The notes beneath the pieces were generated by a model that saw nothing but the letters and a program-made list of their open reading frames with translations, did no database searches and was not told where the DNA came from. From an uncultured Planctomycetales bacterium (GTDB taxonomy: Bacteria > Omnitrophota > Gorgyraeia > Gygaellales > Profunditerraquicolaceae): a stretch of DNA of 64,000 nt. Every line of letters starts with the position of its first letter. Within the stretch, counting starts at the first letter, position 1. Where the stretch lies: the NCBI GenBank assembly GCA_964579435.1, contig CAZOGI010000003.1, forward strand, positions 47,321 to 111,320, read 5' to 3'. Made by a program: the position numbers and the translations under genes. Of the stretch, positions 4,619-62,483 are shown piece by piece.

Positions 4619-5158
4619 ATGCAGCGGCTGATCTCTGCACGCGAAAAAGCCCTTCTGGCCTCCACGGGCGCGTTGGCCGTTTTGAGCGTGCTGTTTAGTT
4701 TTGTTATTCATCCGGCATTACGCCGTAACGTCAGCCTCGGCCAGGAGATCGCTGCGGCCCGCCATAAGCTGGTTAAATACAGCCGGCTCCTGGGTCAACG
4801 GGAGGATATCGAAGGCCGTTTCCGCTCGCTCTCCGCGAATTTAGAAGGTTCACTGAAACATCGCGATCCTCTGGTCGCCGCTCTTTCGGAGCTGGAGGCA
4901 TTGGCGAAAAAGGCGAACATAAAAATTATCGATATCCGGCCGGATCTGGCGGCGCGATCCTCGGGGGCGTACCGCGAGCTCTCGATCGAGATACGCGCCG
5001 AAGGGGATACCCAGGGGTATCTGGCATTCATCTACCAGTTGGAGAATTCCCTCTCCCTTTTGCGTATCAAACGCTTCCAGATAAGCGCCAAGCCGAATTC
5101 CGCGACGCTTGAAGGGCTTTTTACGATCACCCAGATTTCCGCGGGCTCAGGCCCTTGA
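4619..5158 (+). CDS. GspM / PilO-like T2SS inner-membrane protein
   Basis: 179 aa; N-terminal TM (LASTGALAVLSVLFSFVI) followed by a coiled-coil periplasmic domain; GGAGGG RBS; last gene of the gsp block. Confidence 0.45.
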   Translation: MQRLISAREKALLASTGALAVLSVLFSFVIHPALRRNVSLGQEIAAARHKLVKYSRLLGQREDIEGRFRSLSANLEGSLKHRDPLVAALSELEALAKKANIKIIDIRPDLAARSSGAYRELSIEIRAEGDTQGYLAFIYQLENSLSLLRIKRFQISAKPNSATLEGLFTITQISAGSGP

Positions 5159-5322
5159 AATCCCGCGTTCGTGTGCTATACTTAAATTGTAAACGCACCA
5201 TTTGACAATTTGACACAAGCACCCTACTGAAAAGGGCAAACCAGGAGCGATCCTGGGGCGCAAAGCTATCGGTCCGCCACGAAGCGACGGCGGACGGCCG
5301 GGCTGCCAAAGAGGGGCACTAT

Positions 5323-5348
5323 CTTGAGAGGCCCTCAAGATTTTTTTT
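5323..5348 (+). terminator. Rho-independent terminator after the gspM block (hairpin CTTGAG-AGGCC-CTCAAG plus T8)
   Basis: Perfect 6-bp stem with a 5-nt loop followed by 8 consecutive T. Confidence 0.5.
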
Positions 5349-5372
5349 GTGCTTGGCGCTCTGGCATTGCCG

Positions 5373-5399
5373 CCCCGCTGGTTTGCAGCGGGGTTTTTT
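5373..5399 (+). terminator. Second intrinsic terminator hairpin (CCCCGCTG-GTTTG-CAGCGGGG plus T6)
   Basis: 8-bp GC-rich stem and T-run, 25 nt downstream of the first terminator. Confidence 0.5.
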
Positions 5400-5444
5400 G
5401 TTTGGGGGGGCGCCTCGCAGGAGGCTGATAAACGGGTCGGTCCT

Positions 5445-5472
5445 GTCCCGCCGCCTTTAACAGCGGCGGGAC
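5445..5472 (+). promoter_or_regulatory. Perfect 10-bp inverted repeat GTCCCGCCGC-(8 nt)-GCGGCGGGAC, 17 nt upstream of the RHH gene start; candidate operator or 5'-UTR structure
   Basis: Read directly from sequence; followed by the RBS GGAGGTGGGG and ATG at 5490. Confidence 0.35.
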
Positions 5473-5489
5473 CAACGGAGGTGGGGCAT

Positions 5490-5735
5490 ATGAAGCAGGA
5501 GAGCGAGATTGCGATGAGGCACCGGGTTATCACCATGCTCAACCGCAACGAGATGGATTTCCTTGACAAGCTCGGCAAGGACGCGCTTTTCTCGACGGGA
5601 CACAAACTTTCCTACAGCGAGATCCTGCGCGCCCTTATCGACTTCGCCATGGAGATCGGCGTGTCCGGGGAACGGGTGGATTCACCCGACACCTTTAAAC
5701 GGGTTGTTGAGCAGCGCTCTAAAACAGCTGGCTAA
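5490..5735 (+). CDS. Small ribbon-helix-helix (CopG/Arc-like) putative DNA-binding protein; paralog of 42287..42559
   Basis: 81 aa from an internal ATG with RBS; predicted beta-strand RVITML then helices; motif FLDKLGKDALFSTG shared with the minus-strand gene at 42287..42559. Confidence 0.5.
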   Translation: MKQESEIAMRHRVITMLNRNEMDFLDKLGKDALFSTGHKLSYSEILRALIDFAMEIGVSGERVDSPDTFKRVVEQRSKTAG

Positions 5736-6022
5736 AAGGAGGGAGGCATGAGGCGCATGACTCATAAGTTCATACGTGGAGCCAAGAAGCACTTGAACCG
5801 CGCGAAGAGAAATCACAAAAAACATCTTTGTTTTCTCGCCGCATTGCGTCTCTTCGCGGGGATGCCGGTAGGAGGGTAGTTCCCTTATTTTGACCATATA
5901 CATTTAGTCCCACGCCACGTAGAGGCAAGAGCCCTGAGGCCATCATCAGGGCTCTTTGCTTTATAGGCCTCCGTTTGACTGGCAGTGCAAAAAGCTGTTG
6001 ACAAAATGAGCTTCTGTGCTAC

Positions 6023-6036: not shown

Positions 6037-6273
6037 GTGAACATGAAAAATCATCCTAACATTTATCTAATAAAAGATTTAGCTAGGTTAAGCGGGCATT
6101 CTGTACATACGATTAAATTCTACCTTAAAATCGGGCTTATAAAGGAAGTTGACCGGAGTCCCGAGACACGGTTTCGTTATTTTGATGATTCTACCCTGGC
6201 TGAGCTTACCAGGATTCGCTCTTTCAGGAAAGAAGGGCGGTCATTGAAGGATATCAGGGATGAGCTATTATAA
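6037..6273 (+). CDS. MerR-family helix-turn-helix transcriptional regulator (short, 78 aa)
   Basis: IYLIKDLARLSGHSVHTIKFYLKIGLI matches the MerR N-terminal HTH; GTG start; gene lies in a low-GC islet. Confidence 0.6.
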   Translation: MNMKNHPNIYLIKDLARLSGHSVHTIKFYLKIGLIKEVDRSPETRFRYFDDSTLAELTRIRSFRKEGRSLKDIRDELL

Positions 6274-7093
6274 GATCTTCGGCCTGGTCAAAGAGCCCTT
6301 TTCGACCAGCCCTGATCCGCAGTTCTTTTACCACTCCCTCAGCCATAATACCGCGCTGAAGCGATTGGAGATCGCCGTACGCCTGCGCCGGGGGCTTTGT
6401 CTCATACTCGGAGATGTCGGCACCGGCAAGACGACGCTCTCGCGCACGCTCCTGCAGGCTTTCCGCAACGACAGCAGTTTCATCTTCCATATGATCCTTG
6501 ATCCGAGCTTCAAATCGGAATTCCAGTTTCTCCAGTCGCTGGTCAAGATGTTCAATATCAACCCCGAATTTAAATCTACGATCGATTTCAAGGAGGCGCT
6601 GCAGAAGTATCTTTTCCAGAAAGGGGTCGAAGAGAACAAGACGATAATTCTGCTGATCGACGAAGGCCAGAAGATCACCTCCGAGAATTTGGAGGTGCTG
6701 CGCACGCTCCTGAACTTCGAGACGAACGAGTATAAGCTCCTGCAGCTGATTATCATGGCCCAGGTGGAGCTCCTGCCGCGGATCAAACGCATCCGTAATT
6801 TCATCGACCGGGTCGCCCTCAAATACACGATCAACCCGCTGGATGAAGCCGAGACGCAGGAGATGATCAGTTTCCGCCTCCGCCAGGCAGGCTATCGGGG
6901 GGATATGAACCTTTTCAGCGACGAAGCGGTTCACGAAATCTACCAGTACACCCAGGGGTATCCCCGCAAGATCGCGATGGTCTGTCATGATGCCCTCGAG
7001 GTCGCGGTGATGAAGGAGTCGCCGTTTGTCGACGGGCCGACTATCAGGGAGTTGATCGCTTCCCGCGAAGATGAAAGAGAATCCATCGCCTGA
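6260..7093 (+). CDS. exeA: ExeA/GspA-like AAA ATPase (type II secretion accessory)
   Basis: Walker A GDVGTGKT, Walker B ILLIDEGQ; ExeA-family length and order, upstream of the secretin. Confidence 0.75.
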   Translation: MSYYKIFGLVKEPFSTSPDPQFFYHSLSHNTALKRLEIAVRLRRGLCLILGDVGTGKTTLSRTLLQAFRNDSSFIFHMILDPSFKSEFQFLQSLVKMFNINPEFKSTIDFKEALQKYLFQKGVEENKTIILLIDEGQKITSENLEVLRTLLNFETNEYKLLQLIIMAQVELLPRIKRIRNFIDRVALKYTINPLDEAETQEMISFRLRQAGYRGDMNLFSDEAVHEIYQYTQGYPRKIAMVCHDALEVAVMKESPFVDGPTIRELIASREDERESIA

Positions 7094-7714: not shown

Positions 7715-9775
7715 ATGTCGAAAAAAATTTTGAGTGTTTTTCTGGCATTCATGGTTTGTGCGTCGGCTTTGCCTGCCCAGGAGGAGGCGCCGTATCCTCC
7801 CGCGCCCGAGGAACAGTATCCTTCCGAAGGGGCGATCCAGAATCCATACGAGGAACCGCCGCAGGATCTGCCTGCGCTCGTGCCGGTGCCGGCCGATCCG
7901 TATGCGGTTGCGCCGCCGTTGTCCCGGGGCGGCTCGGGGGCGGTATCGGTATCGCCCTCGGCGACCCCGGTGTCCGCCGTTACGGCGCAGAACAAGATCT
8001 CCCTGGAGATCAAAGGGATGGATGTGGTCGATGTCCTCAAGACCCTGGCTTCGCGAGCGCGCCTGAATATTGTCGTCGGCAAGAACGTGACCGGCAGGGT
8101 GACGCTTTTTTTGAAGGACGTCGAGGTCTGGGACGCCTTTGAGATCGTCCTGCTGGCCAACGATCTTGCGTACGAGCGAAAAGGGGAGATCATTAACGTT
8201 ATGACGCAGCGTGATTACGAGCTTCTCTACGGCGAGCGGTACAAGGACCGCAAGGAGGTGGAGATCGTCCAGCTGCGCCACGCCAAAGCCGCCGACCTCT
8301 CGCGGGCACTCAACCAGATGAAGACGAACGTCGGGCGCGTGGTGGTGGATGAATCCTCCAACACCATCGCGCTCATCGACATGCCGCAGAAGCTCCAGGA
8401 GATGCAGACCTTCATCGCCAGCACCGACCTGCCGATCGCCACGCGCGTCTTTTCGCTCAATTACGCTCAGGCGGAGAAACTCAGCACCAAGCTGCAGGAG
8501 GTCGTGACCAAGGGGGTCGGTTCGGTGCGCATCGACGAACGGACGAATAAGGTCGCCGTCACCGACTATCCTTCCAAGCTGGCGGAGATCGAGAAGATCA
8601 TCTCGGCATTCGACGAAAAGACCCCCCAGATCCTGATCGACGCCCAGATCGTCGAGATCAACCCGAAGGACGAATTCGCCGGCGGGGTCGACTGGGACTA
8701 CTGGCTGCGAAAAAATTTGCGTCTGGTCGGCACCCTCGCCGCGCCCGGCCTGGCCAGCGCCGCGACCATCCCGACGAAGCTCTCTTTCGGCGTCGCGGCC
8801 CGCGACGCGGCCGCATCGGTCGACGATCAGGGACAGTACAAGGCGATCATCGACATGGTGCGGGTGATCGGGGATACCAAGATCCTCTCCAGTCCCCGGA
8901 TCATGGCGCTCAACAACCAGGAGGCCAAGATCCTCGTCGGCACCAAGGACGCCTATATCACCTCGACAACCTCCCAATCGGGGACGGGCAGCACCGTGAC
9001 TTCGCAGTCGGTCAACTTCGTCGACGTCGGGATCAAGCTGTACGTGACGCCGACCGCCAACCACGAAGGGTTTATCTCGATGAAGATACGCCCGGAGATC
9101 AGCTCCGCGATACGCACCGACCTGACGTCCCAGGGCAGCGTCACCCAGGTGCCGATCGTGACGACCTCCGAGATCGAGACGACGATCATGATCAAGGACG
9201 GGGCGACGATAATCATCGCCGGGTTGAAAAAAGACAAGATCGAGGAGGAGACCAAGAAATTCCCCCTCCTCGGCGATATCCCGATCGTCGGGATGGTCTT
9301 CCGCAACGTCAAACGCGAGAAATCCAAAAGCGAGCTGATCATCTTTATAACCCCGCACATCGTCTCAGGGGAAGGGGAAGAGCCGCGGGAATATTCGAGC
9401 CTCACCAACGATCCGATCATAACCGGGATCCAGCGCGCGTCACGCGAGCAAAAGAGCTCCCTGCAAACGAGCCGCCGGGTCTGGGATGCGCGCACGATGA
9501 CGGTGTCGGATTACCAGCAGTTCATCTCCGAGCGCATCCAGCGCGCCTGCCGCGCCGCCCGCGCCGCCGCAGCGGGGAGCGGCTCGCTTGCCGTCGCCTT
9601 TACGCTGGACGCCTACGGGTACCTGAAGGACGAGCCGGTCGTCGTTTCCTCGAGCGACGAGAACCTGAACCTCTTTACCGTCGCCTGCATCAAGAAAGCG
9701 GCGCCGTTCCCGCCGTTTCCCGCTTCCCTGGGAAAGGACGAGGAGGCGTTCAGGATAAACGTTTCCTACGAATGA
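7715..9775 (+). CDS. gspD: Type II secretion system secretin GspD
   Basis: Signal peptide, N0/N1-like domains, secretin core KFPLLGDIPIVGMVFRNVKREKSKSELIIFITPHIV; RBS GGAGGA. Confidence 0.9.
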   Translation: MSKKILSVFLAFMVCASALPAQEEAPYPPAPEEQYPSEGAIQNPYEEPPQDLPALVPVPADPYAVAPPLSRGGSGAVSVSPSATPVSAVTAQNKISLEIKGMDVVDVLKTLASRARLNIVVGKNVTGRVTLFLKDVEVWDAFEIVLLANDLAYERKGEIINVMTQRDYELLYGERYKDRKEVEIVQLRHAKAADLSRALNQMKTNVGRVVVDESSNTIALIDMPQKLQEMQTFIASTDLPIATRVFSLNYAQAEKLSTKLQEVVTKGVGSVRIDERTNKVAVTDYPSKLAEIEKIISAFDEKTPQILIDAQIVEINPKDEFAGGVDWDYWLRKNLRLVGTLAAPGLASAATIPTKLSFGVAARDAAASVDDQGQYKAIIDMVRVIGDTKILSSPRIMALNNQEAKILVGTKDAYITSTTSQSGTGSTVTSQSVNFVDVGIKLYVTPTANHEGFISMKIRPEISSAIRTDLTSQGSVTQVPIVTTSEIETTIMIKDGATIIIAGLKKDKIEEETKKFPLLGDIPIVGMVFRNVKREKSKSELIIFITPHIVSGEGEEPREYSSLTNDPIITGIQRASREQKSSLQTSRRVWDARTMTVSDYQQFISERIQRACRAARAAAAGSGSLAVAFTLDAYGYLKDEPVVVSSSDENLNLFTVACIKKAAPFPPFPASLGKDEEAFRINVSYE

Positions 9776-21751: not shown

Positions 21752-21825
21752 GGGCCCATAGCTCAGTCGGTCAGAGCAGGTGACTCATAATCACTTGGTC
21801 GGAGGTTCGAATCCCCCTGGGCCCA
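21752..21825 (+). tRNA. tRNA with CAU anticodon (elongator Met or Ile2/lysidine type); 74 nt, no encoded CCA
   Basis: Cloverleaf: acceptor GGGCCCA/TGGGCCC, D arm GCTC..GAGC, anticodon loop CTCATAA, T loop TTCGAAT; G1-C72 paired, so not initiator-type. Confidence 0.8.
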
Positions 21826-22110: not shown

Positions 22111-22187
22111 GGGCATTTAGCTCAGCTGGTTAGAGCGCGTGCCTCACATGCACGAGGTCAGAGGTTCAAGTCCTCTAATGCCCACCA
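22111..22187 (+). tRNA. tRNA-Val (anticodon CAC), 77 nt with encoded CCA
   Basis: Acceptor GGGCATT/AATGCCC, anticodon stem CGTGC/GCACG, loop CTCACAT, T loop TTCAAGT, 3' ACCA followed by a T-run. Confidence 0.85.
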
Positions 22188-22954: not shown

Positions 22955-23435
22955 GTTTTTTATCGACGGCGCTTCCAAGGGCAATCCCGGGCACGCGGGT
23001 ATCGGGGTCGTCGTGACGCGCGGCAAGGAGACGATCCGCACCATCTCCGAATATATCGGCGAAGCGACCAATAATACCGCCGAGTACCGCGCGCTGCTGC
23101 GGGCGTTGCGCGAAGCGGTTGGCCTGCGCGCTTCGAGCGTGCGGATCTTTTCCGATAGCGAGCTTTTGTGCCGACAGGTGAACGGACAGTACCGGGTGAA
23201 AGATCCGCATCTGCGGTTGCTCTTTCAGGAAGCGACGCAGCTGCTTTCCCGTTTCGCGCTCATTTCGGTAGAGCATATCAGGCGCGAGGAGAACAGCGGC
23301 GCCGACCGGCTCGCCACGCTGGCGGTGAAAGAGCATTTGAAGACAACTCATCAGTCCGGTTTCGGCAGACAGCGAGTGGCCGCTCCGCTTACCAAAAGCG
23401 GAGAGGAAAGTCCGGGCTCCGGAGGGCAAGCGTAG
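22932..23435 (+). CDS. RNase H (type 1, RVT_3-like) family protein; the 3' ~70 nt of the ORF run into rnpB, so the true stop or functional end may be earlier
   Basis: FIDGASKGNPGHAGIGVVV...TNNTAEYRALLRAL...DSELLCRQ...NSGADRLA are RNase HI catalytic blocks (DEDD). Confidence 0.6.
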   Translation: MMTSQPLEFFIDGASKGNPGHAGIGVVVTRGKETIRTISEYIGEATNNTAEYRALLRALREAVGLRASSVRIFSDSELLCRQVNGQYRVKDPHLRLLFQEATQLLSRFALISVEHIRREENSGADRLATLAVKEHLKTTHQSGFGRQRVAAPLTKSGEESPGSGGQA

Positions 23436-23722
23436 CGGGTAACTCCCGTCCTGCGGTACCTGCCGCAGCGGATAGCTTTTGCCTCATACGCAGAAGCCAC
23501 AAACGCGTGATCGTTTCGTTTGTGAGAGCCACAGAGACGAGTCCCCGCCAACGGCGGGGGGTGAAACGCGGCAATCTCTACGCGGAGCAAGGCCAAATAG
23601 GAGACGAGGGCGCCCTCCCCGTCATTTAGTCTCGGGTTGGCTGCTTGATCCCGGCGGCAACGCCGGGGCTCAGAGGAATGGCCACGTAGGTAAAACAGGA
23701 CCCGGCTTATGCTGTCTGCCGT
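23362..23722 (+). ncRNA. rnpB: RNase P RNA (rnpB), bacterial type A
   Basis: Universal blocks GAGGAAAGTCCGGGCTCC (P4 5' strand), GGTAACTCCCG, AGCAAGGCCAAATAGG, ACAGGACCCGGCTTA (P4 3' strand); P1 pairing GGCAGACAGC / GCTGTCTGCC; T-rich tail. Confidence 0.85.
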
Positions 23723-23767
23723 TTTATTTAGACGATAAAACACCTAAGGACGTAAAGGAGGAGTCAG

Positions 23768-34928: not shown

Positions 34929-35138
34929 CCGTTCTTCTTCCCGTCGAGCCTCCGGTGTTTTCCCGCAGTGAAAACGCTTTCCCGTTCGCTCTGTTTGCGT
35001 CTTGAAATGCAAGCAGTTATGAGAAATACTTTAAGCGGAAAATGGAGCTTCACGAGAAAGGCAAATCGTTCGTCCGGGATGGCGAATGAGGCGCAAAGCC
35101 AAGGATCCCCACCAGCCACAGGAGCATCACCGGGGATA

Positions 35139-35187
35139 GCCGGGTTGCCGAAGGAATCATTTAGAAAATGGGCAACCCGGCTTTTTA
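35139..35187 (+). terminator. Intrinsic terminator (11-bp stem GCCGGGTTGCC...GGCAACCCGGC plus TTTTT) downstream of plsY
   Basis: Perfect 11-bp inverted repeat with a 21-nt loop and T-run. Confidence 0.45.
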
Positions 35188-35205: not shown

Positions 35206-35544
35206 ATGAAAACGCTGCTTTACAGGAAGATTACTTCTGCCGATTTGATGAAACGGCGTATCGCCTGCTGCGAGCTGTCGGACGCTCAGGGAATTCACAG
35301 CGCTATCCGCAGGCACTTCGTCTACATGGTGAAGGAAGTGGCCGAGGCGCCCGCGGAAAACCAGCTCCCGAGAGTTACGATCTTGCGCCAGCGAGATACG
35401 CGGATGCATAGAGAGCGTTTCTTGTGCAGGGTCAAGGGTGTGGTGTACGTTTCGGGAAACGAGAAAAAATTGAAAGTTTCTTTCATTCATTCTTTGGCGA
35501 TCGATCTTTCGCTTTCTGAAAAGAAAGTATTAGATGTCGCTTGA
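35206..35544 (+). CDS. Hypothetical protein (112 aa) in a lower-GC islet
   Basis: ORF with no recognisable motifs; immediately upstream of the fimbrial-like operon promoter. Confidence 0.3.
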   Translation: MKTLLYRKITSADLMKRRIACCELSDAQGIHSAIRRHFVYMVKEVAEAPAENQLPRVTILRQRDTRMHRERFLCRVKGVVYVSGNEKKLKVSFIHSLAIDLSLSEKKVLDVA

Positions 35545-35711
35545 CAAGAGAGAGGAGAAAGAGTAAACTTACTTAAGACTTTGAAAAACGATTAATGCCG
35601 GTCGCCTTGGTGTGGAGGGCATCAAGGCAAGCCACGAATATACTAGCCGGATTGACTTTAAAAGGGTCAGTCCGGCTTTGTCTTTTGAAGGACTCAGATC
35701 TGAGAAATGCT

Positions 35712-35740
35712 TTGACAGTGTTTAAGCGGCGAGATATAGT
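35712..35740 (+). promoter_or_regulatory. Sigma70-like promoter TTGACA-17nt-TATAGT driving the fimbrial-like operon
   Basis: Consensus -35 and good -10, 26 nt upstream of the RBS AAAGGAGGGGGG and ATG 35766. Confidence 0.4.
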
Positions 35741-35765
35741 ACCCCTGACAAAAAGGAGGGGGGAA

Positions 35766-37190
35766 ATGAAGGCAAAAATCAACAGGTTACGCTGCAGTGC
35801 GATTTTGATTTTGGCTTCATTGTTTCTTGCCGGGTCTTTGGTTGACGGGCTGGCTTTGGATGCTTTTACGTTCTCCTATCATCTTACGGACGGCGGTTAT
35901 ACTCTGGAGTTAACGCCGAACTATCCGTTCAAGGGGGTCGAATTCTCGGTCAACTCCGCCTCGACGCAGTTTGAGCTTCTGCAGGATATCGTGGTACCCC
36001 TGCGCAGCAGGGATAATCCTGCGCTTGCCCTTTCCTCGCCGCATTTTGTCGTACGCCGTTTGACCGGAAGCTCGGGGACCGGATCATTCTACGTGCAGTC
36101 CAACGATGTCCCGGTATCCGGCGTCCAGCGCCTCTATACCTCCGCCTCAAACGGCGGGTCGGTTTCCTTTACCCTCGTCTACGGTATCGCTTCCGTTGAA
36201 TCGATCCCCGAAGGGCACTATTACGGCAAGGTCGGCCTGACCATGCGTCCGATCAACGCGGCGCGGGATCAGGTCGTGCAGTACCTGGATATCTATGTTA
36301 CCGTTTCGCGCGAGACCGGCGCCAAGCCGGCGGTCGAGCTTAAGGTCCCGACAGGGGGCAAGACGATCGTGCTTGAGCGCAACCGCCGGGAAGCGCGCAC
36401 GGGAGAAATCGAGGCTGCGGTGAGCGGGCAGTTCGCGCGCAAGACCAGCATCCAGCAGCAGCTGCTGGAGCCGCTGCGCGCCCTTGAGAGCGCCGCGGTC
36501 ATGCCGCCGGAATCAATCATCTGCACGGCATTGGACGTCGAGCGGGGATCTGTGCCGGCTGCGCAGCCTCTGGCGCTTCGCCCCCTTGAGGCGTACGTAT
36601 CGGAGGCTGACGGCCGTGCAGATGATGCGTTCCTCCTGCAGTATGCGTTGGATGAGTCGGCGGTCTTTGCGGCAGGGACGTACCGTTCGCGGATCCAGTA
36701 TTATCTGGACGAGATGGGAAAGCGCACTAACCTGGATATCTTCGACCTGGAGGTGCGCGTCGAACGCGTCTTCGATCTTTTCGTAAAACCCCTGGATCCG
36801 ACCGGCAAGATCATGTTCCGCCAGGACCGCACGAATCCCGATGTTGCTGATGAGTCGCTGCCGCAGAAAGAAGTGCTCCTGGAAGTCAAGTCGAACATAT
36901 TCCGCCAGTATCAGGTTAACCAGAACGTCGAGTCCGATCTGACGATCGCCGGCGAAGTCCTGCCGGTCAAGCATTTGCGTGTTTCGACAGAGCCCGTGCA
37001 CACGAAAGGAGACCTGAAGATCAGCGCGCCTGTCGAGGTGACCAAGGGGACCCAGACCCTTTTCGTTTCGGACGCAAAAGGGTCCGCGGATTCCTTCAAG
37101 GTGGTGTACCAGTTGGATATTCCCCGCACCTTGAACGTCAAGTCAGGGGAATACAGCGCCCGTATTACGTACTCATTGGTCGAGTTATAA
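35766..37190 (+). CDS. Secreted three-domain protein with spore-coat-U (SCPU/Csu-pilin)-like repeats; candidate tip/adhesin subunit
   Basis: Signal peptide MKAKINRLRCSAILILASLFLAGS; three ~150-aa beta-rich segments each ending in a Tyr-alternating motif (EGHYYGKVGLTM, AGTYRSRIQYYL, SGEYSARITYSLVEL) like the SCPU C-terminal AGTYxxTVTVTV motif. Confidence 0.45.
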   Translation: MKAKINRLRCSAILILASLFLAGSLVDGLALDAFTFSYHLTDGGYTLELTPNYPFKGVEFSVNSASTQFELLQDIVVPLRSRDNPALALSSPHFVVRRLTGSSGTGSFYVQSNDVPVSGVQRLYTSASNGGSVSFTLVYGIASVESIPEGHYYGKVGLTMRPINAARDQVVQYLDIYVTVSRETGAKPAVELKVPTGGKTIVLERNRREARTGEIEAAVSGQFARKTSIQQQLLEPLRALESAAVMPPESIICTALDVERGSVPAAQPLALRPLEAYVSEADGRADDAFLLQYALDESAVFAAGTYRSRIQYYLDEMGKRTNLDIFDLEVRVERVFDLFVKPLDPTGKIMFRQDRTNPDVADESLPQKEVLLEVKSNIFRQYQVNQNVESDLTIAGEVLPVKHLRVSTEPVHTKGDLKISAPVEVTKGTQTLFVSDAKGSADSFKVVYQLDIPRTLNVKSGEYSARITYSLVEL

Positions 37191-37262
37191 AACAGAAAGG
37201 AGCAGAACATGAACACAAAGCACGGTTTCAAAAATATTACAAAGAAAGGGGGTGAATCAGCG

Positions 37263-37994
37263 ATGAAAAAGACAATCGTGTTGTTGATGGCAGTGGCGAT
37301 GTTGTTCGGAGTGCAGGCGGTTTCTTGGGCGGCGACCACGCAGAGCATCGGCGTGTCAGTGACGATTCCTGCTCCGGGGGTGAGCATTCCTTCGGGCAAG
37401 ACGATCCTGCGTTGTCCTGGAACGATGCCGACCTCCGGTGACCCGTGGACGTATCCGGGCTGTGTAAAGAATCTGACAACTATGGACTTCGGAACATTGA
37501 CCCACCTTCTCTCCGATGGCAAGGGAGCGGGATGTTTCTTTGGTCCGAATTACTTCATCGTCTACTTGTATCCTGATGTGTGGGGTGGCGTGGGATACGA
37601 GATTACACAGTCGTTCTCCTGGACGACCGCAGGGTTTCCTTCCAGCGCGCTGGTTATGACCGCCGTGTATTCACGCGAAGACCGGTATGACTTGAACGGT
37701 GATGGCGACGTGAACGATCCCGGCGAAACGCCGCAGGGAGATAAACCGGCAGCAGCGGTCCTGGGTAATGCCGGGCTTCCACAGCTTGCAGCGGGCGGGG
37801 TTCGTCAGGTGTATAAGAGCGAAAAACCCGGCTCTGCGCGCATCGTGAGAGCTCAGTACGGCTTGCCTCCGTATCCGGGAACAGATGCGACGCTTCCGGA
37901 GAACAACAGGCCGACAGGCTGGGCCCCGGTTCCTTTGACCCTCGGTCAGGGAACGTATTCGGGCACGGCTACGATTACGATCACGGCGTATTAA
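37263..37994 (+). CDS. Secreted SCPU-domain (Csu/sigma-type fimbrial) subunit-like protein
   Basis: Signal peptide MKKTIVLLMAVAMLFGVQAVSWA; N-terminal SIGVSVTIPAPGVSIPSGKTILRC...MDFGTL and C-terminal GQGTYSGTATITITAY both match SCPU-domain hallmarks. Confidence 0.5.
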   Translation: MKKTIVLLMAVAMLFGVQAVSWAATTQSIGVSVTIPAPGVSIPSGKTILRCPGTMPTSGDPWTYPGCVKNLTTMDFGTLTHLLSDGKGAGCFFGPNYFIVYLYPDVWGGVGYEITQSFSWTTAGFPSSALVMTAVYSREDRYDLNGDGDVNDPGETPQGDKPAAAVLGNAGLPQLAAGGVRQVYKSEKPGSARIVRAQYGLPPYPGTDATLPENNRPTGWAPVPLTLGQGTYSGTATITITAY

Positions 37995-38142
37995 TTGTCC
38001 GTAGCCTTTGAGCATCAAGGTGTTACTGACAATGCCGTGAAAAAAAGTTCTTTACTAATCGCAATTTTAATGCTACGCTAAGGGTAAGAGTGTAGCGAAG
38101 GAGGAGACGGGTTAACAATTCGGAGAGAAGGAGGAGCAACTT

Positions 38143-39027
38143 TTGAGAAAGACTCTTCTCGGTATTATCTTCTTCTTACTCGTGGTTGCCTCCCGTGCGG
38201 AGGGCATAGGTTTCAACCTGGATAGAGCAAAGGTAAGGCATTCTATCCCGCCCGGAGGGTCCGAGGGAGGCCAAATAACGGTTGAAAACGTTTCGACGTC
38301 CACGCTGTCCCTGCGCGTGTATGCCGAGGATTGGGCATACGGGCCGGACCAGGATGGATCGAAGAATTTCTATCCTGCGGGGACCTCCCCGTACAGCGCG
38401 GCCAACTGGATCACGTTTTCTCCTTCCGAATTCGTGCTGACTCCGTTCAGCAAAAAGAAGGTCAATTACCTGGTTAAAGTCCCTCCTGAGGCAAGCGGCG
38501 GCCATTACGCGGTACTCTTCTTCGAGGCCCTTACGGAGAAGACCGATATCCTGCTGGAAGGGGATGAGCAGCGGCAGCGCCGCGCCGGCATCGATGTTGC
38601 GGTTCGTTTGGGATCGTTGTTCTACATAGAGACAAAAGGCAAGTCAAAGCGAAGCGGCTCTCTTTCGGACTTCTCCGTAACCGGGGACGGTCCGGGAGAG
38701 CCGCTTCGTTTTTCTTTGAAAGTCCAGAATACCGGGGATCTGGATATCACCGCCGGAGGGACCTATCACCTTATGGACGGGCGCGGCGTCATCCATGCGC
38801 GGGGTGAGTTTTCCGACGTCTTTACGCTGCCCGGGGATGAGGGATTCTTGAGGTCCGAATGGAAAAAGCCGCTTCCGCCGGGATCGTATGATGTTATCAT
38901 GACCGTCAATCTCGGCAAAGCCCAGGAAGAATGGAGGAATTTCGGGAGAGGACCGGTTATGGCCAGGGAGGCAACGCTGGTCATCGGTCAGGATGGCGCG
39001 GTCAAGAGCGCCAGCCAACTCAGATAA
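38143..39027 (+). CDS. Secreted periplasmic protein with PapD-like (pilus chaperone / Ig-like) N-terminal pattern; candidate fimbrial chaperone
   Basis: Signal peptide; GQITVENVSTSTLSLRVYAED ... FVLTPFSKKKVNYLVKVP ... VAVRLGSLFYIE parallels PapD-family strand motifs (tltVtN..P.lvQ.W, f.vtPP.frL.pg..q.vRi, ik.fyRp); TTG start after GAAGGAGGAG. Confidence 0.4.
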   Translation: MRKTLLGIIFFLLVVASRAEGIGFNLDRAKVRHSIPPGGSEGGQITVENVSTSTLSLRVYAEDWAYGPDQDGSKNFYPAGTSPYSAANWITFSPSEFVLTPFSKKKVNYLVKVPPEASGGHYAVLFFEALTEKTDILLEGDEQRQRRAGIDVAVRLGSLFYIETKGKSKRSGSLSDFSVTGDGPGEPLRFSLKVQNTGDLDITAGGTYHLMDGRGVIHARGEFSDVFTLPGDEGFLRSEWKKPLPPGSYDVIMTVNLGKAQEEWRNFGRGPVMAREATLVIGQDGAVKSASQLR

Positions 39028-39033
39028 TCCCCC

Positions 39034-41976: not shown

Positions 41977-42276
41977 TTAACGGCTGTACACGGTGCGTAC
42001 GAGTGTTGCGCCTTCGGTTCGCTCCGCCAGAAGCATCGCCGGCGGTTTTTGTTTTGGTGCGCGAACTGTTGGCGCCGTTTCGACCGGTGCGCAGGGTTGC
42101 AGCGACGCCTCTGCCGGCGCGGTATCCTGACCCTGGCCTGTCAGCAGCGGGGCATTGACCCCCGGAATGGCCGGTATGGTACAGGAGGCCTGGATCGACA
42201 TGCTCTCCGCGGCAGCTGCAATCGCGCTGGAGCATATCACCAATGCAATCGTCAGAAGAATCCCTTTCCTGTTCAT
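41977..42276 (-). CDS. Small secreted protein (99 aa), hypothetical
   Basis: Strong RBS GGAGG before the internal Met; signal peptide MNRKGILLTIALVICSSAIAAAAE; 11 nt downstream of the RHH paralog on the minus strand. Confidence 0.35.
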   Translation of the reverse strand: MNRKGILLTIALVICSSAIAAAAESMSIQASCTIPAIPGVNAPLLTGQGQDTAPAEASLQPCAPVETAPTVRAPKQKPPAMLLAERTEGATLVRTVYSR

Positions 42277-42286
42277 AGCAGCCTCC

Positions 42287-42559
42287 TCAATTGTTCCCTT
42301 CCGTGGCTGGGGGGATTTTTTTCTCCGCAAGCTTCCTGAGCACATCCAAAAAACGAGATTCGAAGTCGGTTTCGCTCTTGATTCCCTCTCCGGAGAGCGG
42401 CATCTTTTTGGCCAGATGGATAAGCCAGGCGATGAGCTTGGCGCGGGAGACTTTCAGGCCGGTTGAAAAGAGCGCGTCCTTGCCGATCTTATCGAGAAAA
42501 TCGACTTCTTCCCGGTTCAAGAACGTCACGACTCTCTGGTTGCTGCCATCTCCGTTCAT
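42287..42559 (-). CDS. Small ribbon-helix-helix putative DNA-binding protein; paralog of 5490..5735
   Basis: VVTFLNREEVDFLDKIGKDALFSTGLKVSRAKLIAWL shares the FLDK[LI]GKDALFSTG block with the T2SS-cluster gene; RBS AAGGAG. Confidence 0.5.
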   Translation of the reverse strand: MNGDGSNQRVVTFLNREEVDFLDKIGKDALFSTGLKVSRAKLIAWLIHLAKKMPLSGEGIKSETDFESRFLDVLRKLAEKKIPPATEGNN

Positions 42560-42579: not shown

Positions 42580-42611
42580 AAAAAAAAAGCCCCGGCAGCA
42601 GATGCCAGGGC
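42580..42611 (-). promoter_or_regulatory. Terminator-like hairpin (9-bp stem with one G-U) followed by U9 in the leader, ~22 nt upstream of the RHH paralog start; candidate attenuator
   Basis: Minus-strand reading GCCCTGGCA-TCTGC-TGCCGGGGC then TTTTTTTTT then the GGAG RBS and ATG. Confidence 0.35.
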
Positions 42612-42628: not shown

Positions 42629-42665
42629 AAAAAAAAAACCCTAAAAGGCTCTTTTAGGGTTTTTT
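42629..42665. terminator. Bidirectional intrinsic terminator: perfect 10-bp palindrome ACCCTAAAAG-GCT-CTTTTAGGGT flanked by A10 and T6
   Basis: Seen in sequence; probably terminates the minus-strand 1070-aa gene (stop at 42935). Confidence 0.5.
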
Positions 42666-42934
42666 CCCCTTTGGCAACCCCGCTATCCGCCATTACCGCA
42701 TTGGCGGACCGGAAGCTTTGCGCCCTAGCATTACTGCTAGTTTGCCTTTTTCAGAAGGACTGTTACCTGATTGTCAATTTAACCCCGTTAGAATTTCCCA
42801 ATCTTGCTTTCAGCCACACCATTTCTCTAACGGGGCTACTATAAATATAGCATACAATTCTAAAATGTCAAGGCTGGCAAATGATTTTTTGCGAAATTGC
42901 ACCGTTGCATTTGCACAAAATGCACCGGGCGCGC

Positions 42935-62409: not shown

Positions 62410-62483
62410 GGCGGCGTAGCTCAGTCTGATAGAGCACTCGGCTCATACCCGATCGGTCAGTGGTTTAAATCCACTCGCCGCCA
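62410..62483 (+). tRNA. tRNA with CAU anticodon (Met or Ile2), 74 nt, no encoded CCA
   Basis: Acceptor GGCGGCG/CGCCGCC, D arm GCTC..GAGC, anticodon loop CTCATAC, T loop TTTAAAT. Confidence 0.8.

What the first reader, a model, noticed from the sequence alone, without database searches (positions are those of the whole stretch)
5445..5879. Paralogous ribbon-helix-helix regulators flanking secretion and fimbrial loci, each preceded by a strong GC hairpin; tiny basic ORF downstream
The 81-aa protein at 5490..5735 (inside the T2SS cluster, between gspM and exeA) and the 90-aa protein at 42287..42559 (minus strand, directly downstream of the fimbrial-like operon) share a nearly identical block, FLDK(L/I)GKDALFSTG. 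Both have a predicted beta-alpha-alpha RHH layout, so they form a lineage-specific family of small DNA-binding proteins.

Both genes have their own RBS and are immediately preceded by a stable hairpin. For this gene the hairpin is a perfect 10-bp inverted repeat 5445-5472, 17 nt before the ATG. RHH proteins typically autoregulate through inverted or direct repeats.

Downstream (5748-5879) an excellent RBS (AAAAGGAGGGAGG) precedes a 43-codon ORF encoding an extremely basic peptide (MRRMTHKFIRGAKKHLNRAKRNHKKHLCFLAALRLFAGMPVGG). This could be a genuine micro-protein.

Together this suggests a dedicated regulatory layer for envelope and secretion functions.
Basis: partly seen in the sequence, partly recalled or inferred. 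Interest (0 to 1): 0.55.

Follow-up and report, generated by a model that had tools for sequence, protein, structure and literature searches.

The report
c-di-GMP riboswitch-controlled small regulator operons
The two small paralogous proteins are real and probably are ribbon-helix-helix DNA binders, but each heads its own small operon switched by a cyclic-di-GMP riboswitch, a module conserved across Candidatus Omnitrophota that also carries a conserved 35-43-residue basic micro-protein and that I could not find described.

Summary
The two proteins (81 aa, 5490..5735 +; 90 aa, 42559..42287 -) are paralogs, the 10-bp palindrome exists, and the 43-codon basic ORF is there.

Both genes lie behind c-di-GMP-I riboswitch aptamers (5225-5310 +; 42755-42669 -), each followed by two tandem intrinsic terminators. 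The same aptamer precedes 77 of 80 homologous genes in Omnitrophota genomes.

The hairpin before the second gene is simply the second terminator. The palindrome before the first gene is a clade-specific RNA hairpin whose stem sequence varies, so it is not a conserved operator. A better operator candidate is a set of 8-nt phased TTGACA repeats between the -10 box and the aptamer.

The micro-ORF is conserved in 31 of 80 loci and shows a clear coding signature.

The T2SS-embedded position recurs in five other genomes. Elsewhere the regulator precedes small secreted proteins.

DNA binding, the targets and the sign of the switch are inferred, not shown.

The parts
5155..5182 (+). Sigma-70-type promoter of unit A (TTGAAA, 16 nt, TG-TATACT)
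   Evidence: Consensus scan scores 10/12 with an extended -10. The same -35 / TGnTATACT arrangement is found upstream of the aptamer in 65 of 76 homologous leaders.
5202..5215 (+). Two 8-nt phased direct repeats, TTGACAATTTGACA, between the -10 box and the aptamer. Candidate operator (inferred).
   Evidence: Exact match to the motif. TTGACAAT occurs within 55 nt upstream of the aptamer in 52 of 76 leaders, against 0.004 expected. Between 1 and 5 units are phased at 8 nt. The repeats are absent from the two riboswitches not linked to this operon family.
5221..5316 (+). c-di-GMP-I riboswitch aptamer of unit A
   Evidence: Rfam RF01051 at 5225-5310, 58.9 bits against a gathering score of 35. My own model R1 scores 88.7 bits. 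Covariation across 62 aptamers is strong. The G / CGCAAAG / GCC ligand-contact nucleotides are present.
5321..5349 (+). Intrinsic terminator T1 of the expression platform (8-bp stem plus T8)
5372..5400 (+). Intrinsic terminator T2 (9-bp GC-rich stem plus T-run)
   Evidence: Two tandem terminators are found in 40 of 77 leaders and at least one in 74 of 77.
5445..5472 (+). Perfect 10-bp hairpin with no T-run, abutting the Shine-Dalgarno sequence (GGAGG 5477-5481).
   Evidence: Comparable hairpins with different stem sequences, each followed by CCyGGAGG, occur in L021, L043, L055, L025, L041, L046, L057, L005 and L003.
5490..5735 (+). 81-aa A-type member of a new ribbon-helix-helix-like family
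5748..5879 (+). 43-aa basic micro-protein gene (net charge +12)
   Evidence: Homologs are adjacent to the family gene in 31 of 80 loci. Coding signature: third-position excess, and synonymous:nonsynonymous 2430:1635 in frame against 778:3415 and 624:3602 out of frame. 45 called homologs in the protein database.
5927..5963 (+). Terminator closing the bicistronic unit A (11-bp stem)
42844..42871 (-). Sigma-70-type promoter of unit B (TTGACA, 16 nt, TG-TATATT)
   Evidence: 11/12 match.
42764..42777 (-). TTGACAATCAGGTA, the B-type version of the leader motif
   Evidence: B-type consensus is TTGACAATtaGGAa.
42664..42760 (-). c-di-GMP-I clan riboswitch aptamer of unit B
   Evidence: Rfam RF03167 (clan CL00126) at 42755-42669, 66.9 bits against a gathering score of 59. 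R1 scores 98.2 bits.
42629..42660 (-). Terminator T1 of unit B (ACCCTAAAAG / CTTTTAGGGT plus T-run)
   Evidence: Sequence. RNAfold and my own terminator scan.
42580..42611 (-).
   Evidence: 9 pairs, 7 of them GC, followed by T9.
42287..42559 (-). 90-aa B-type member of the family
   Evidence: B-type genes in L059-L083 share QRVVTFLNREEVDFLDKLGKDALFSTGLKLSRAK.
41977..42276 (-). 99-aa signal-peptide protein (SCTIPAIPGVNAP ... VYSR), the conserved downstream partner of B-type genes
   Evidence: Translation. Same motif and position in about 20 B-type loci. No Pfam or NCBIfam family.

Best explanation
Each of the two genes is the regulator gene of a small, self-contained operon. Neither is part of the neighbouring secretion or 'fimbrial' operons.

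**Transcription and the switch.** Transcription starts at a strong sigma-70-type promoter. It then passes a c-di-GMP-I riboswitch aptamer and is stopped, or let through, at two tandem intrinsic terminators. The cellular c-di-GMP level therefore sets how much of the operon is made.

**The protein.** The 81-aa and 90-aa products belong to a new family that spans Candidatus Omnitrophota and adopts a ribbon-helix-helix fold. They most likely act as dimeric DNA-binding transcription factors that pass the c-di-GMP signal on to other promoters. In some relatives the same domain is fused to a c-di-GMP-binding PilZ domain or to a receiver domain. This marks it as a signal-output domain.

**The operator.** The most likely operator is not the GC hairpin. 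It is the array of 8-nt phased TTGACA repeats between the -10 box and the aptamer, where a bound protein would block its own promoter.

**Co-expressed products.** These are a very basic micro-protein of 34-43 aa (unit A here) or small secreted proteins (unit B here, and TIGR04073-family proteins in most A-type relatives).

**Shown:** the riboswitch, the terminators, conservation of the module, the fold prediction, the domain fusions, the coding signature of the micro-ORF, and enrichment of the repeats.

**Inferred:** DNA binding, the identity of the operator, the target genes, the role of the micro-protein, and whether c-di-GMP turns the operon on or off. A weak alternative pairing suggests it turns the operon off.
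For: **Riboswitch**
- Rfam gathering-level hits lie before both genes and before 4 of 4 homologs in three unrelated metagenome loci.
- A model built from these hits finds an aptamer upstream, on the same strand, in 77 of 80 genome loci. One of the three misses has only 28 nt of upstream sequence.
- In 62 aptamers, 94.7% of cells are paired and 15 pairs change on both sides. The covariation score is 0.48 against 0.167 in shuffles (0 of 500 reach it) and at most 0.114 when partners are slid.
- All 62 aptamers keep G, CGCAAAG and GCC at the ligand-contact positions.
- At least one terminator follows in 74 of 77 leaders and two follow in 40 of 77.

**Fold**
- With a 96-sequence alignment AlphaFold gives pLDDT 84.8: an extended N-terminus, then helices 19-36, 42-56 and 66-80.

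**Signalling context**
- About 35 of the best 150 family representatives are 150-260 aa, and most of those (about 190-260 aa) are candidate fusions. All 8 tested carry a C-terminal PilZ domain above the Pfam threshold. Two others carry an N-terminal receiver domain.
- PilZ-fusion forms also sit behind the riboswitch (L051, L088).

**Repeats**
-. They are absent from the two riboswitches that are not linked to this operon family.

**Independent transcription units**
-.

**Conserved partners**
- A TIGR04073 protein lies directly downstream in 42 loci, often with overlapping stop and start codons.
- B-type genes are followed by the secreted protein with SCTIPAIPGVNAP.
- T2SS synteny is seen in L021, L037, L051, L055 and L056.
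Against: **Fold evidence is moderate only.**
- No sequence model supports ribbon-helix-helix. Pfam, NCBIfam, PHROGs and PDB profile searches give nothing, even at E up to 10 over 96 members.
- Foldseek against the PDB is not significant.
- The shallow-alignment model predicted the N-terminus as a helix.
- The turn between the helices is G-x-x-x-S, not the usual G-x-S/T/N.
- The protein is electrically neutral (net charge 0).

**Operator and targets are untested.**
- No DNA binding was tested, and no target promoter carrying the repeats was found in this 64-kb window other than the two leaders themselves.
- TTGACA is also the -35 consensus, and the repeats are transcribed, so they could act in the RNA.
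- L086 carries the repeats and the riboswitch but no regulator gene in cis.

**Other open points.**
- The direction of the switch could not be derived.
- Four of seven aptamers score best with the variant model RF03167, whose ligand I cannot state.
Confidence: 0.7

Rival explanations
1. First reader's model. The small proteins autoregulate by binding the GC-rich palindromes directly upstream of their genes, and they form a dedicated regulatory layer that is part of the T2SS and fimbrial loci.
For: - The palindrome 5445-5472 is perfect and unique in the window.
- Ribbon-helix-helix proteins often bind inverted repeats (established knowledge).
- The T2SS-embedded position is conserved in 5 other genomes.
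Against: - The hairpin before the second gene is a terminator with a T9 tail.
- A non-terminator hairpin near the start codon is present in only about 15-21 of 77 leaders. Its stem sequence differs between loci while the putative DNA-reading strand (HRVITML) is nearly invariant. This is the pattern of an RNA structure, not of a protein-binding site.
- Most family members are not next to secretion-system genes.
- Each gene has its own promoter, riboswitch and terminators.
Confidence: 0.07
2. The small protein and the basic micro-protein form a toxin-antitoxin-like or obligate two-protein pair. The ribbon-helix-helix protein would neutralise or partner the peptide. The pair would not be a signalling regulator.
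For: - The two genes are adjacent. When the peptide gene lies downstream, the two genes are translationally coupled (gaps of -4 to 0 nt) in L021, L027 and L043.
Against: - 49 of 80 loci have no micro-ORF, and no B-type locus has one.
- Gene order is variable: the micro-ORF is upstream in 28 loci and downstream in 3, and in L055 its ORF as listed overlaps the end of the regulator gene.
- L086 has two micro-ORFs and no regulator gene.
- Synteny is conserved across a phylum and the module is under riboswitch control, unlike mobile toxin-antitoxin modules.
- The peptide matches no toxin family.
- The net charge of the regulator does not differ between loci with and without the peptide.
Confidence: 0.08
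3. The protein has a ribbon-helix-helix-like shape but does not bind DNA. It could be a c-di-GMP receptor or adaptor, or a cytoplasmic helper for the co-transcribed secreted proteins (TIGR04073 family, the SCTIPAIPGVNAP family, T2SS).
For: - It is always co-transcribed with envelope or secreted proteins.
- It is neutral in charge.
- No sequence similarity to DNA-binding families was found.
- The M. xanthus ribbon-helix-helix protein CdbA binds c-di-GMP itself (PMC7156744).
Against: - Receiver-plus-domain and domain-plus-PilZ architectures are typical of output domains such as DNA binders.
- The fold matches are DNA-binding proteins.
- The conserved phased repeats at its own promoter fit an operator.
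- The downstream partners differ between subfamilies, which does not fit a dedicated chaperone.
Confidence: 0.12
4. The TTGACA repeats are not the operator of this protein. They could act in the 5' leader RNA (stability, or binding of the basic peptide or another factor), or they could bind a different protein.
For: - In A-type leaders the repeats begin 10-11 nt, or 19 or 27 nt, after the -10 box, so they are transcribed.
- L086 has them without a regulator gene in cis.
- TTGACA equals the -35 consensus, and most other TTGACAAT sites look like ordinary -35 boxes.
Against: - In B-type leaders the motif starts 4 nt after the -10 box, so it straddles the likely transcription start.
- Copy number varies from 1 to 5 with strict 8-nt phasing, as in the tandem operators of MetJ, omega and ParG (established knowledge recalled from memory).
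- The second unit differs between the A and B subfamilies, in step with differences in the N-terminal strand.
Confidence: 0.35

Closest known systems
c-di-GMP-I (GEMM-I) riboswitches, e.g. Vc2 upstream of the regulator gene tfoY in Vibrio cholerae (10.1101/617340) and Bc1 of the Bacillus cereus group with two tandem terminators (PMC11218506)
   Same: - Same aptamer class by Rfam score, structure and ligand-contact nucleotides.
- Like Vc2, it gates a regulator gene.
- Like Bc1, its expression platform has two rho-independent terminators a few tens of nt apart.
   Different: - It is near-obligately tied to one protein family across a phylum (77 of 80 loci).
- It is preceded by phased TTGACA repeats.
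- The direction of the switch is unknown.
Ribbon-helix-helix (Arc/MetJ/CopG) transcription factors, especially those binding tandem short repeats (MetJ 8-bp metboxes, omega 7-bp heptads, ParG; recalled from memory)
   Same: - Small size.
- The gene sits behind a promoter carrying 8-nt phased repeats.
   Different: - No detectable sequence similarity to any curated ribbon-helix-helix family.
- Helix 1 is longer, the turn is G-x-x-x-S, and there is an extra C-terminal helix.
- Neither the dimer nor DNA binding has been shown.
CdbA/CdbS of Myxococcus xanthus: a ribbon-helix-helix nucleoid protein that binds c-di-GMP, working with a PilZ protein (PMC7156744, PMC10313047)
   Same: - A small ribbon-helix-helix protein wired into c-di-GMP signalling and linked to a PilZ domain.
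   Different: - No sequence relationship: the PDB profile searches miss CdbA.
- Here c-di-GMP is sensed by the mRNA leader, and in some members by a fused PilZ domain.
- There is no evidence that the domain itself binds c-di-GMP.
Small proteins encoded behind c-di-GMP-I riboswitches in Clostridioides difficile (bioRxiv 10.64898/2026.06.10.731418)
   Same: - A family of small-protein genes, present in several copies per genome, each gated by a class I c-di-GMP riboswitch through premature termination.
   Different: - Those proteins are membrane-associated and act on sporulation.
- These are predicted cytoplasmic ribbon-helix-helix proteins plus a basic peptide, in a different phylum.
- No homology between the two families was tested or is claimed.
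TIGR04073 exosortase-system-associated proteins
   Same: - This is the gene directly downstream of most A-type family members (81 and 72 bits, cut-off 50).
   Different: - No such gene is present in this window.
- I found no paper on the family.
- It is a partner of the module, not part of the finding itself.

Membership tests
Ribbon-helix-helix (Arc/MetJ/CopG) superfamily | Strand-helix-helix topology of about 45 residues | tested here: met
   AlphaFold model from 96 sequences: residues 1-18 without helix (pLDDT 84 for residues 11-20), then helices 19-36 and 42-56, plus an extra helix 66-80. The shallow-alignment model disagreed at the N-terminus, with low confidence.
Ribbon-helix-helix (Arc/MetJ/CopG) superfamily | Structural similarity to solved members | tested here: met
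   [not shown]
Ribbon-helix-helix (Arc/MetJ/CopG) superfamily | Sequence match to a curated ribbon-helix-helix family | tested here: not met
   There were no ribbon-helix-helix family hits for the two window proteins or for 96 diverse members at E up to 10 in Pfam. NCBIfam, PHROGs and PDB profile searches were also negative.
Ribbon-helix-helix (Arc/MetJ/CopG) superfamily | G-x-S/T/N turn between the helices, capping helix 2 | tested here: inconclusive
   The family has the invariant G37-H-K39-L-S41 with helix 2 starting at residue 42. This is G-x-x-x-S, two residues longer than the canonical turn.
Ribbon-helix-helix (Arc/MetJ/CopG) superfamily | Dimer with a two-stranded antiparallel ribbon that binds repeated DNA sites | not testable with these tools
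   Only monomer prediction was available. Candidate sites (the TTGACA repeats) were identified, but binding was not tested.
c-di-GMP-I riboswitch (Rfam clan CL00126) | Covariance-model score above the curated gathering score | tested here: met
   - 5225-5310: RF01051, 58.9 bits against 35.
- 42755-42669: RF03167, 66.9 bits against 59.
- 35050-35152: RF01051, 49.6 bits against 35.
c-di-GMP-I riboswitch (Rfam clan CL00126) | Conserved helices supported by compensatory changes | tested here: met
   62 aptamers: 94.7% paired, 15 pairs with changes on both sides, well above the shuffled and slid controls. The alignment was fitted to the model, which favours the structure.
c-di-GMP-I riboswitch (Rfam clan CL00126) | Ligand-contact nucleotides (G20, A47 and C92 of Vc2; numbering recalled from memory) | tested here: met
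   All 62 aptamers have G before CAAAC, CGCAAAG, and GCC at the corresponding columns. None has the G of the RF03167 consensus CGCGAAG.
c-di-GMP-I riboswitch (Rfam clan CL00126) | Expression platform next to the aptamer | tested here: met
   Terminator-like hairpins start 1-14 nt after the aptamer in 74 of 77 leaders. Window T1 and T2 are confirmed.
c-di-GMP-I riboswitch (Rfam clan CL00126) | Binds c-di-GMP and changes gene expression | not testable with these tools
   This needs in-line probing or ITC and transcription assays. The sign of regulation could not be derived from sequence.
Type II toxin-antitoxin module | Recognisable toxin partner, and a sporadic, mobile distribution | tested here: not met
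   The micro-protein matches no toxin family. It is absent from 49 of 80 loci. The module is syntenic across many Omnitrophota genomes.
T2SS operon component | Co-transcribed with gsp genes and homologous to a Gsp protein | tested here: not met
   The unit has its own promoter, riboswitch, two leader terminators and an end terminator. The protein matches no Gsp family. The position next to gspM is conserved in 5 other genomes.

The most novel reading that the evidence does not exclude
Candidatus Omnitrophota may use a dedicated c-di-GMP circuit that has not been described.

- A class I riboswitch gates a new ribbon-helix-helix transcription factor. In some lineages c-di-GMP would be read a second time by a PilZ domain fused to that factor.
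- The factor binds 8-bp TTGACA iterons at its own transcription start.
- Together with a conserved arginine/lysine-rich micro-protein of about 35 aa, it acts as the switch for surface and secretion genes: the T2SS, exosortase-associated proteins and other small secreted proteins.
- In the boldest version, the micro-protein is a nucleic-acid-binding peptide that acts on the leader RNA hairpin or as a co-repressor.
Probability: 0.3. Interest if true: 0.75.

Novelty: new variant of a known kind. Interest (0 to 1): 0.6.

Why it matters
Omnitrophota are abundant, uncultured, very small bacteria whose regulation is almost unknown. This module gives a concrete, testable signalling path: c-di-GMP, then the riboswitch, then a small DNA-binding protein, then envelope and secretion genes.

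It also yields three things that current databases miss:
- a protein family with no Pfam or NCBIfam model;
- a ribbon-helix-helix-PilZ architecture, a possible new type of c-di-GMP-responsive transcription factor;
- a conserved micro-protein that is usually not annotated, including in this genome.

The near-obligate pairing of one riboswitch class with one regulator family is useful for genome annotation and for designing reporter experiments.

Tried and rejected
**Searches that found nothing**
- Sequence searches for a known family gave nothing informative: Pfam, NCBIfam, PHROGs and PDB profiles. The one weak PDB hit aligned to a purification tag.
- The first AlphaFold run, with 37 close homologs, gave pLDDT 70 and an all-helical model. 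Foldseek on it was meaningless.
- Foldseek on the better model was also not significant.
- The AFDB library was not available.
- tblastn for a TIGR04073 or BNR-propeller partner in the window found none.
- A search for the palindrome as a regulon motif found only the one copy.
- A search for the TTGACA repeat motif elsewhere in the window found only the two leaders and one -35 box.
- Literature searches for TIGR04073, for riboswitches in Omnitrophota, and for PilZ fused to ribbon-helix-helix found no description of this module.

**Analyses that failed or were inconclusive**
- My first hairpin finder was too crude and was replaced.
- I tried to derive the sign of the switch from alternative pairings. 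The P1 3' strand (UAGGG or AGAGG) can pair with the first bases of the T1 5' arm (CCCUA or CCUU), which would make c-di-GMP an off signal. The pairing is only 3-5 bp, and I do not regard it as established.
- I tested whether regulators in loci with the micro-protein are more acidic. There is no difference.
- A TTGACAAT site 1.4 kb upstream in L001 turned out to look like an ordinary -35 box.
Full report
**1.

The 81-aa ORF (5490..5735, +) and the 90-aa ORF (42559..42287, -) are 52% identical over 60 residues, E 2e-20, and share FLDK(L/I)GKDALFSTG. No third copy is in the window.

The palindrome GTCCCGCCGC/GCGGCGGGAC at 5445-5472 is perfect, ends 17 nt before the ATG, and is unique in the window. 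The 43-codon ORF 5748..5879 with its strong ribosome-binding site is present.

There are GspK/L/M-like genes upstream and a MerR-family gene, an ExeA-like ATPase, a GspC-like gene and a secretin downstream.

**2.

An Rfam scan at gathering thresholds finds three c-di-GMP-I clan aptamers in the window:
- 5225-5310(+), in front of the 81-aa gene;
- 42755-42669(-), in front of the 90-aa gene;
- 35050-35152(+), in front of the 35206-41898 operon.

Each of the first two units has a near-consensus promoter: 5155-5182, and 42871-42844 on the minus strand. After the aptamer come two tandem intrinsic terminators: 5321-5349 and 5372-5400 for unit A, and 42660-42629 and 42611-42580 for unit B. Unit A ends with a terminator at 5927-5963.

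So the 'stable hairpin' before the 90-aa gene is the second terminator of a riboswitch expression platform. Both genes are independent transcription units and are not members of the flanking operons.

**3. The module is conserved across a phylum**

The 81-aa protein has at least 439 homologs of 76-105 aa, all called hypothetical. The named ones are from Candidatus Omnitrophota MAGs. An exhaustive profile search finds 212 clusters at 50% identity.

In three long metagenome contigs every copy is preceded by a c-di-GMP aptamer by Rfam's own thresholds. I built a covariance model from the seven Rfam-verified aptamers and searched 80 loci from species-representative genomes. An aptamer lies upstream on the same strand in 77 of them, and one of the three misses has only 28 nt of upstream sequence.

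The 62 best aptamers show strong covariation: 94.7% of cells paired, 15 pairs with changes on both sides, and a score of 0.48 against 0.167 in shuffles and at most 0.114 when partners are slid. All keep the G, CGCAAAG and GCC positions. By my recollection of the Vc2 structure these are G20, A47 and C92, the c-di-GMP contacts.

Four of seven aptamers score slightly better with the variant model RF03167. None carries the G that marks that model's consensus.

At least one terminator follows the aptamer in 74 of 77 leaders, and two follow in 40 of 77.

**4. What the protein is**

No curated family matches, even when 96 diverse members are scanned at E up to 10. PDB profile searches are empty.

A first AlphaFold model from close homologs was poor. 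A second, from the 96-sequence alignment, reached pLDDT 84.8. It has an extended N-terminus, helices 19-36 and 42-56, and an extra helix 66-80.

I take the fold as supported at moderate confidence. The dimeric ribbon itself could not be modelled.

Independent support for a signal-output role comes from domain fusions. About 35 of the best 150 representatives are 150-260 aa, and most of those (about 190-260 aa) are candidate fusions. All 8 tested carry a C-terminal PilZ domain above threshold, with RxxxR and D/NxSxxG motifs. Two others have an N-terminal receiver domain. PilZ-fusion forms also sit behind the riboswitch (L051, L088).

**5. Two subfamilies with different cargo**

- **A-type genes** (HRVITML..., like the 81-aa protein) are followed in 42 loci by a signal-peptide protein of the TIGR04073 'exosortase system-associated' family. 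The stop and start codons often overlap. A BNR-like propeller protein comes next.
- **B-type genes** (QRVVTFL..., like the 90-aa protein) are followed by a small secreted protein with SCTIPAIPGVNAP near the N-terminus and ...YSR at the end. The window's 99-aa ORF 42276..41977 is one of these.

A third arrangement is the one in this window. The A-type unit is inserted between gspM and merR-exeA. It recurs in L021, L037, L051, L055 and L056.

At least two other genomes carry one A-type and one B-type copy. It rests on these contexts, not on the hairpins.

**6. The hairpin and a better operator candidate**

A non-terminator hairpin close to the first start codon is present in only about 15-21 of 77 leaders. 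Where it is present it abuts a CCyGGAGG ribosome-binding site: the window, L021, L043, L055, L025, L041, L046, L057, L005 and L003. The stem sequences all differ. Meanwhile the N-terminal strand of the protein is nearly invariant. That pattern fits an RNA structure, for example one affecting translation or stability, and not a protein-binding site.

In contrast, the stretch between the -10 box and the aptamer carries TTGACA units phased at 8 nt:
- A-type consensus: tgtAAatTGACAtTTTGACAATTTGGtattt.
- B-type consensus: TATACTt.a.TTGACAATtaGGAa.
- Copy number: 1-5 units.

TTGACAAT is found in 52 of 76 leaders, against 0.004 expected per 55 nt. In the window the motif occurs only at the two leaders, plus one -35 box. 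The two riboswitches not linked to this operon family lack it.

Short tandem repeats are the usual operator type of MetJ, omega and ParG (from memory). I therefore propose autoregulation through these repeats. This step is an inference. An RNA-level role or a different binding protein is not excluded, particularly because L086 has the repeats without a regulator gene in cis.

**7. The micro-protein is real**

A profile of the basic peptide (consensus M+R..+K..+..HKKHxxFLxAxRLYxGMP) finds it next to the family gene in 31 of 80 loci:
- In 28 loci it lies upstream, between the terminators and the regulator gene.
- In 3 loci (L021, L027, L043) it lies downstream and is translationally coupled (gaps -4 to 0 nt).
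- In L055 it also lies at the downstream end, but its ORF as listed overlaps the end of the regulator gene.
- In the window it is downstream with a 12-nt gap.

Among 30 distinct sequences, third codon positions carry about twice as many differences as first or second positions (5499 against 2889 and 2636). Single-base codon differences are synonymous:nonsynonymous 2430:1635 in frame, against 778:3415 and 624:3602 out of frame.

The large protein database holds 45 called homologs, all hypothetical with no Pfam domain. The window's own copy is not annotated. Net charge is about +11 in about 36 residues. Its function is unknown. A nucleic-acid-binding or co-regulator role is a guess.

**8. Mechanism and its limits**

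*Shown:* promoter, aptamer, tandem terminators, conserved operon content, predicted fold and domain fusions.

*Inferred:* c-di-GMP binding changes termination, the protein binds DNA as a dimer, it autoregulates through the repeats, and it controls envelope and secretion genes.

The sign of the switch is unresolved. The 3' strand of the P1 helix can pair with the first bases of the T1 5' arm, which would make c-di-GMP an off signal, but the pairing is only 3-5 bp.

**9. Comparison with known systems**

The RNA is a member of the c-di-GMP-I class. Its two-terminator platform resembles Bc1 (PMC11218506). Its control of a regulator gene resembles Vc2-tfoY (10.1101/617340).

The protein works like a ribbon-helix-helix factor but fails the sequence-membership test. 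The closest functional analogue is CdbA with its PilZ partner CdbS (PMC7156744, PMC10313047), with no sequence relationship. Riboswitch-gated small-protein families exist in C. difficile (10.64898/2026.06.10.731418).

I found no paper describing this family, a ribbon-helix-helix-PilZ fusion, TIGR04073, or riboswitches in Omnitrophota.

**10. Verdict**

This is a real and well-conserved module built from known kinds of parts in a new combination. It includes a protein family and a micro-protein that are absent from curated databases.

Noticed in passing
window 35050-35152 (+) and 35206-41898 (+): A third c-di-GMP-I aptamer (RF01051, 49.6 bits) precedes a five-gene operon of proteins with no family (112, 531, 261 and 294 aa) plus a 954-aa protein with TPR, pilus-N and SdrD_B-like domains. 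It lacks the TTGACA repeats.
   Followed up: partly
window 7715-9775 (+): The T2SS/T4P-type secretin carries a C-terminal TonB_C domain (PF03544, residues 621-685), which looks to me like an unusual fusion.
   Followed up: no
window 6037-6273 and 6260-7093 (+); L021 2648-3662; L051 6917-7916: A short MerR-family gene overlaps the start of the ExeA-like ATPase gene. The pair is conserved at 67-77% identity in other genomes' T2SS clusters.
   Followed up: partly
L086 2140-2611: A promoter, a TTTGACAATTTGTTAA motif, a c-di-GMP aptamer (59.9 bits) and a terminator are followed by two tandem basic micro-ORFs (35 and 36 aa), with no ribbon-helix-helix gene next to them.
   Followed up: partly
L010 3527-3765, L037 2513-2707, L055 3699-3879: Two aptamer matches in tandem lie upstream of the family gene. 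The second match is weak in each case.
   Followed up: no
L008 4168-4063 (-): Another c-di-GMP aptamer on the opposite strand faces the end of the regulator-TIGR04073 operon. It has its own promoter and no TTGACA repeats.
   Followed up: partly
window 42835-42783 (-); also L061, L080, L041 leaders: An extra hairpin, CCCCGTTAGA...TCTAACGGGG with a 33-nt loop, lies between the promoter and the TTGACA motif of unit B. Similar CCCCGTTAGA / TCTAACGGGG arms abut the aptamer in several other loci. Unexplained.
   Followed up: no
window 5173-5193 and 5202-5222: An imperfect inverted repeat (71% complementary) links the -10 region (ATTGTAAA) with the TTGACAAT repeats, so the candidate operator may include an inverted unit.
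   Followed up: no
window 41977-42276 (-) and about 20 B-type loci: A family of small secreted proteins (85-125 aa) with no match in Pfam or NCBIfam: signal peptide, (S/T)C(T/S)IPAIPGVNAP, a low-complexity middle, and a C-terminal ...T(I/L/F)YSR. It always lies just downstream of B-type regulators.
   Followed up: partly
window 23365-23723, 21752-21825, 22111-22184, 62410-62483: Bacterial RNase P RNA class A (167 bits) and three tRNA genes. Ordinary housekeeping RNAs.
   Followed up: no
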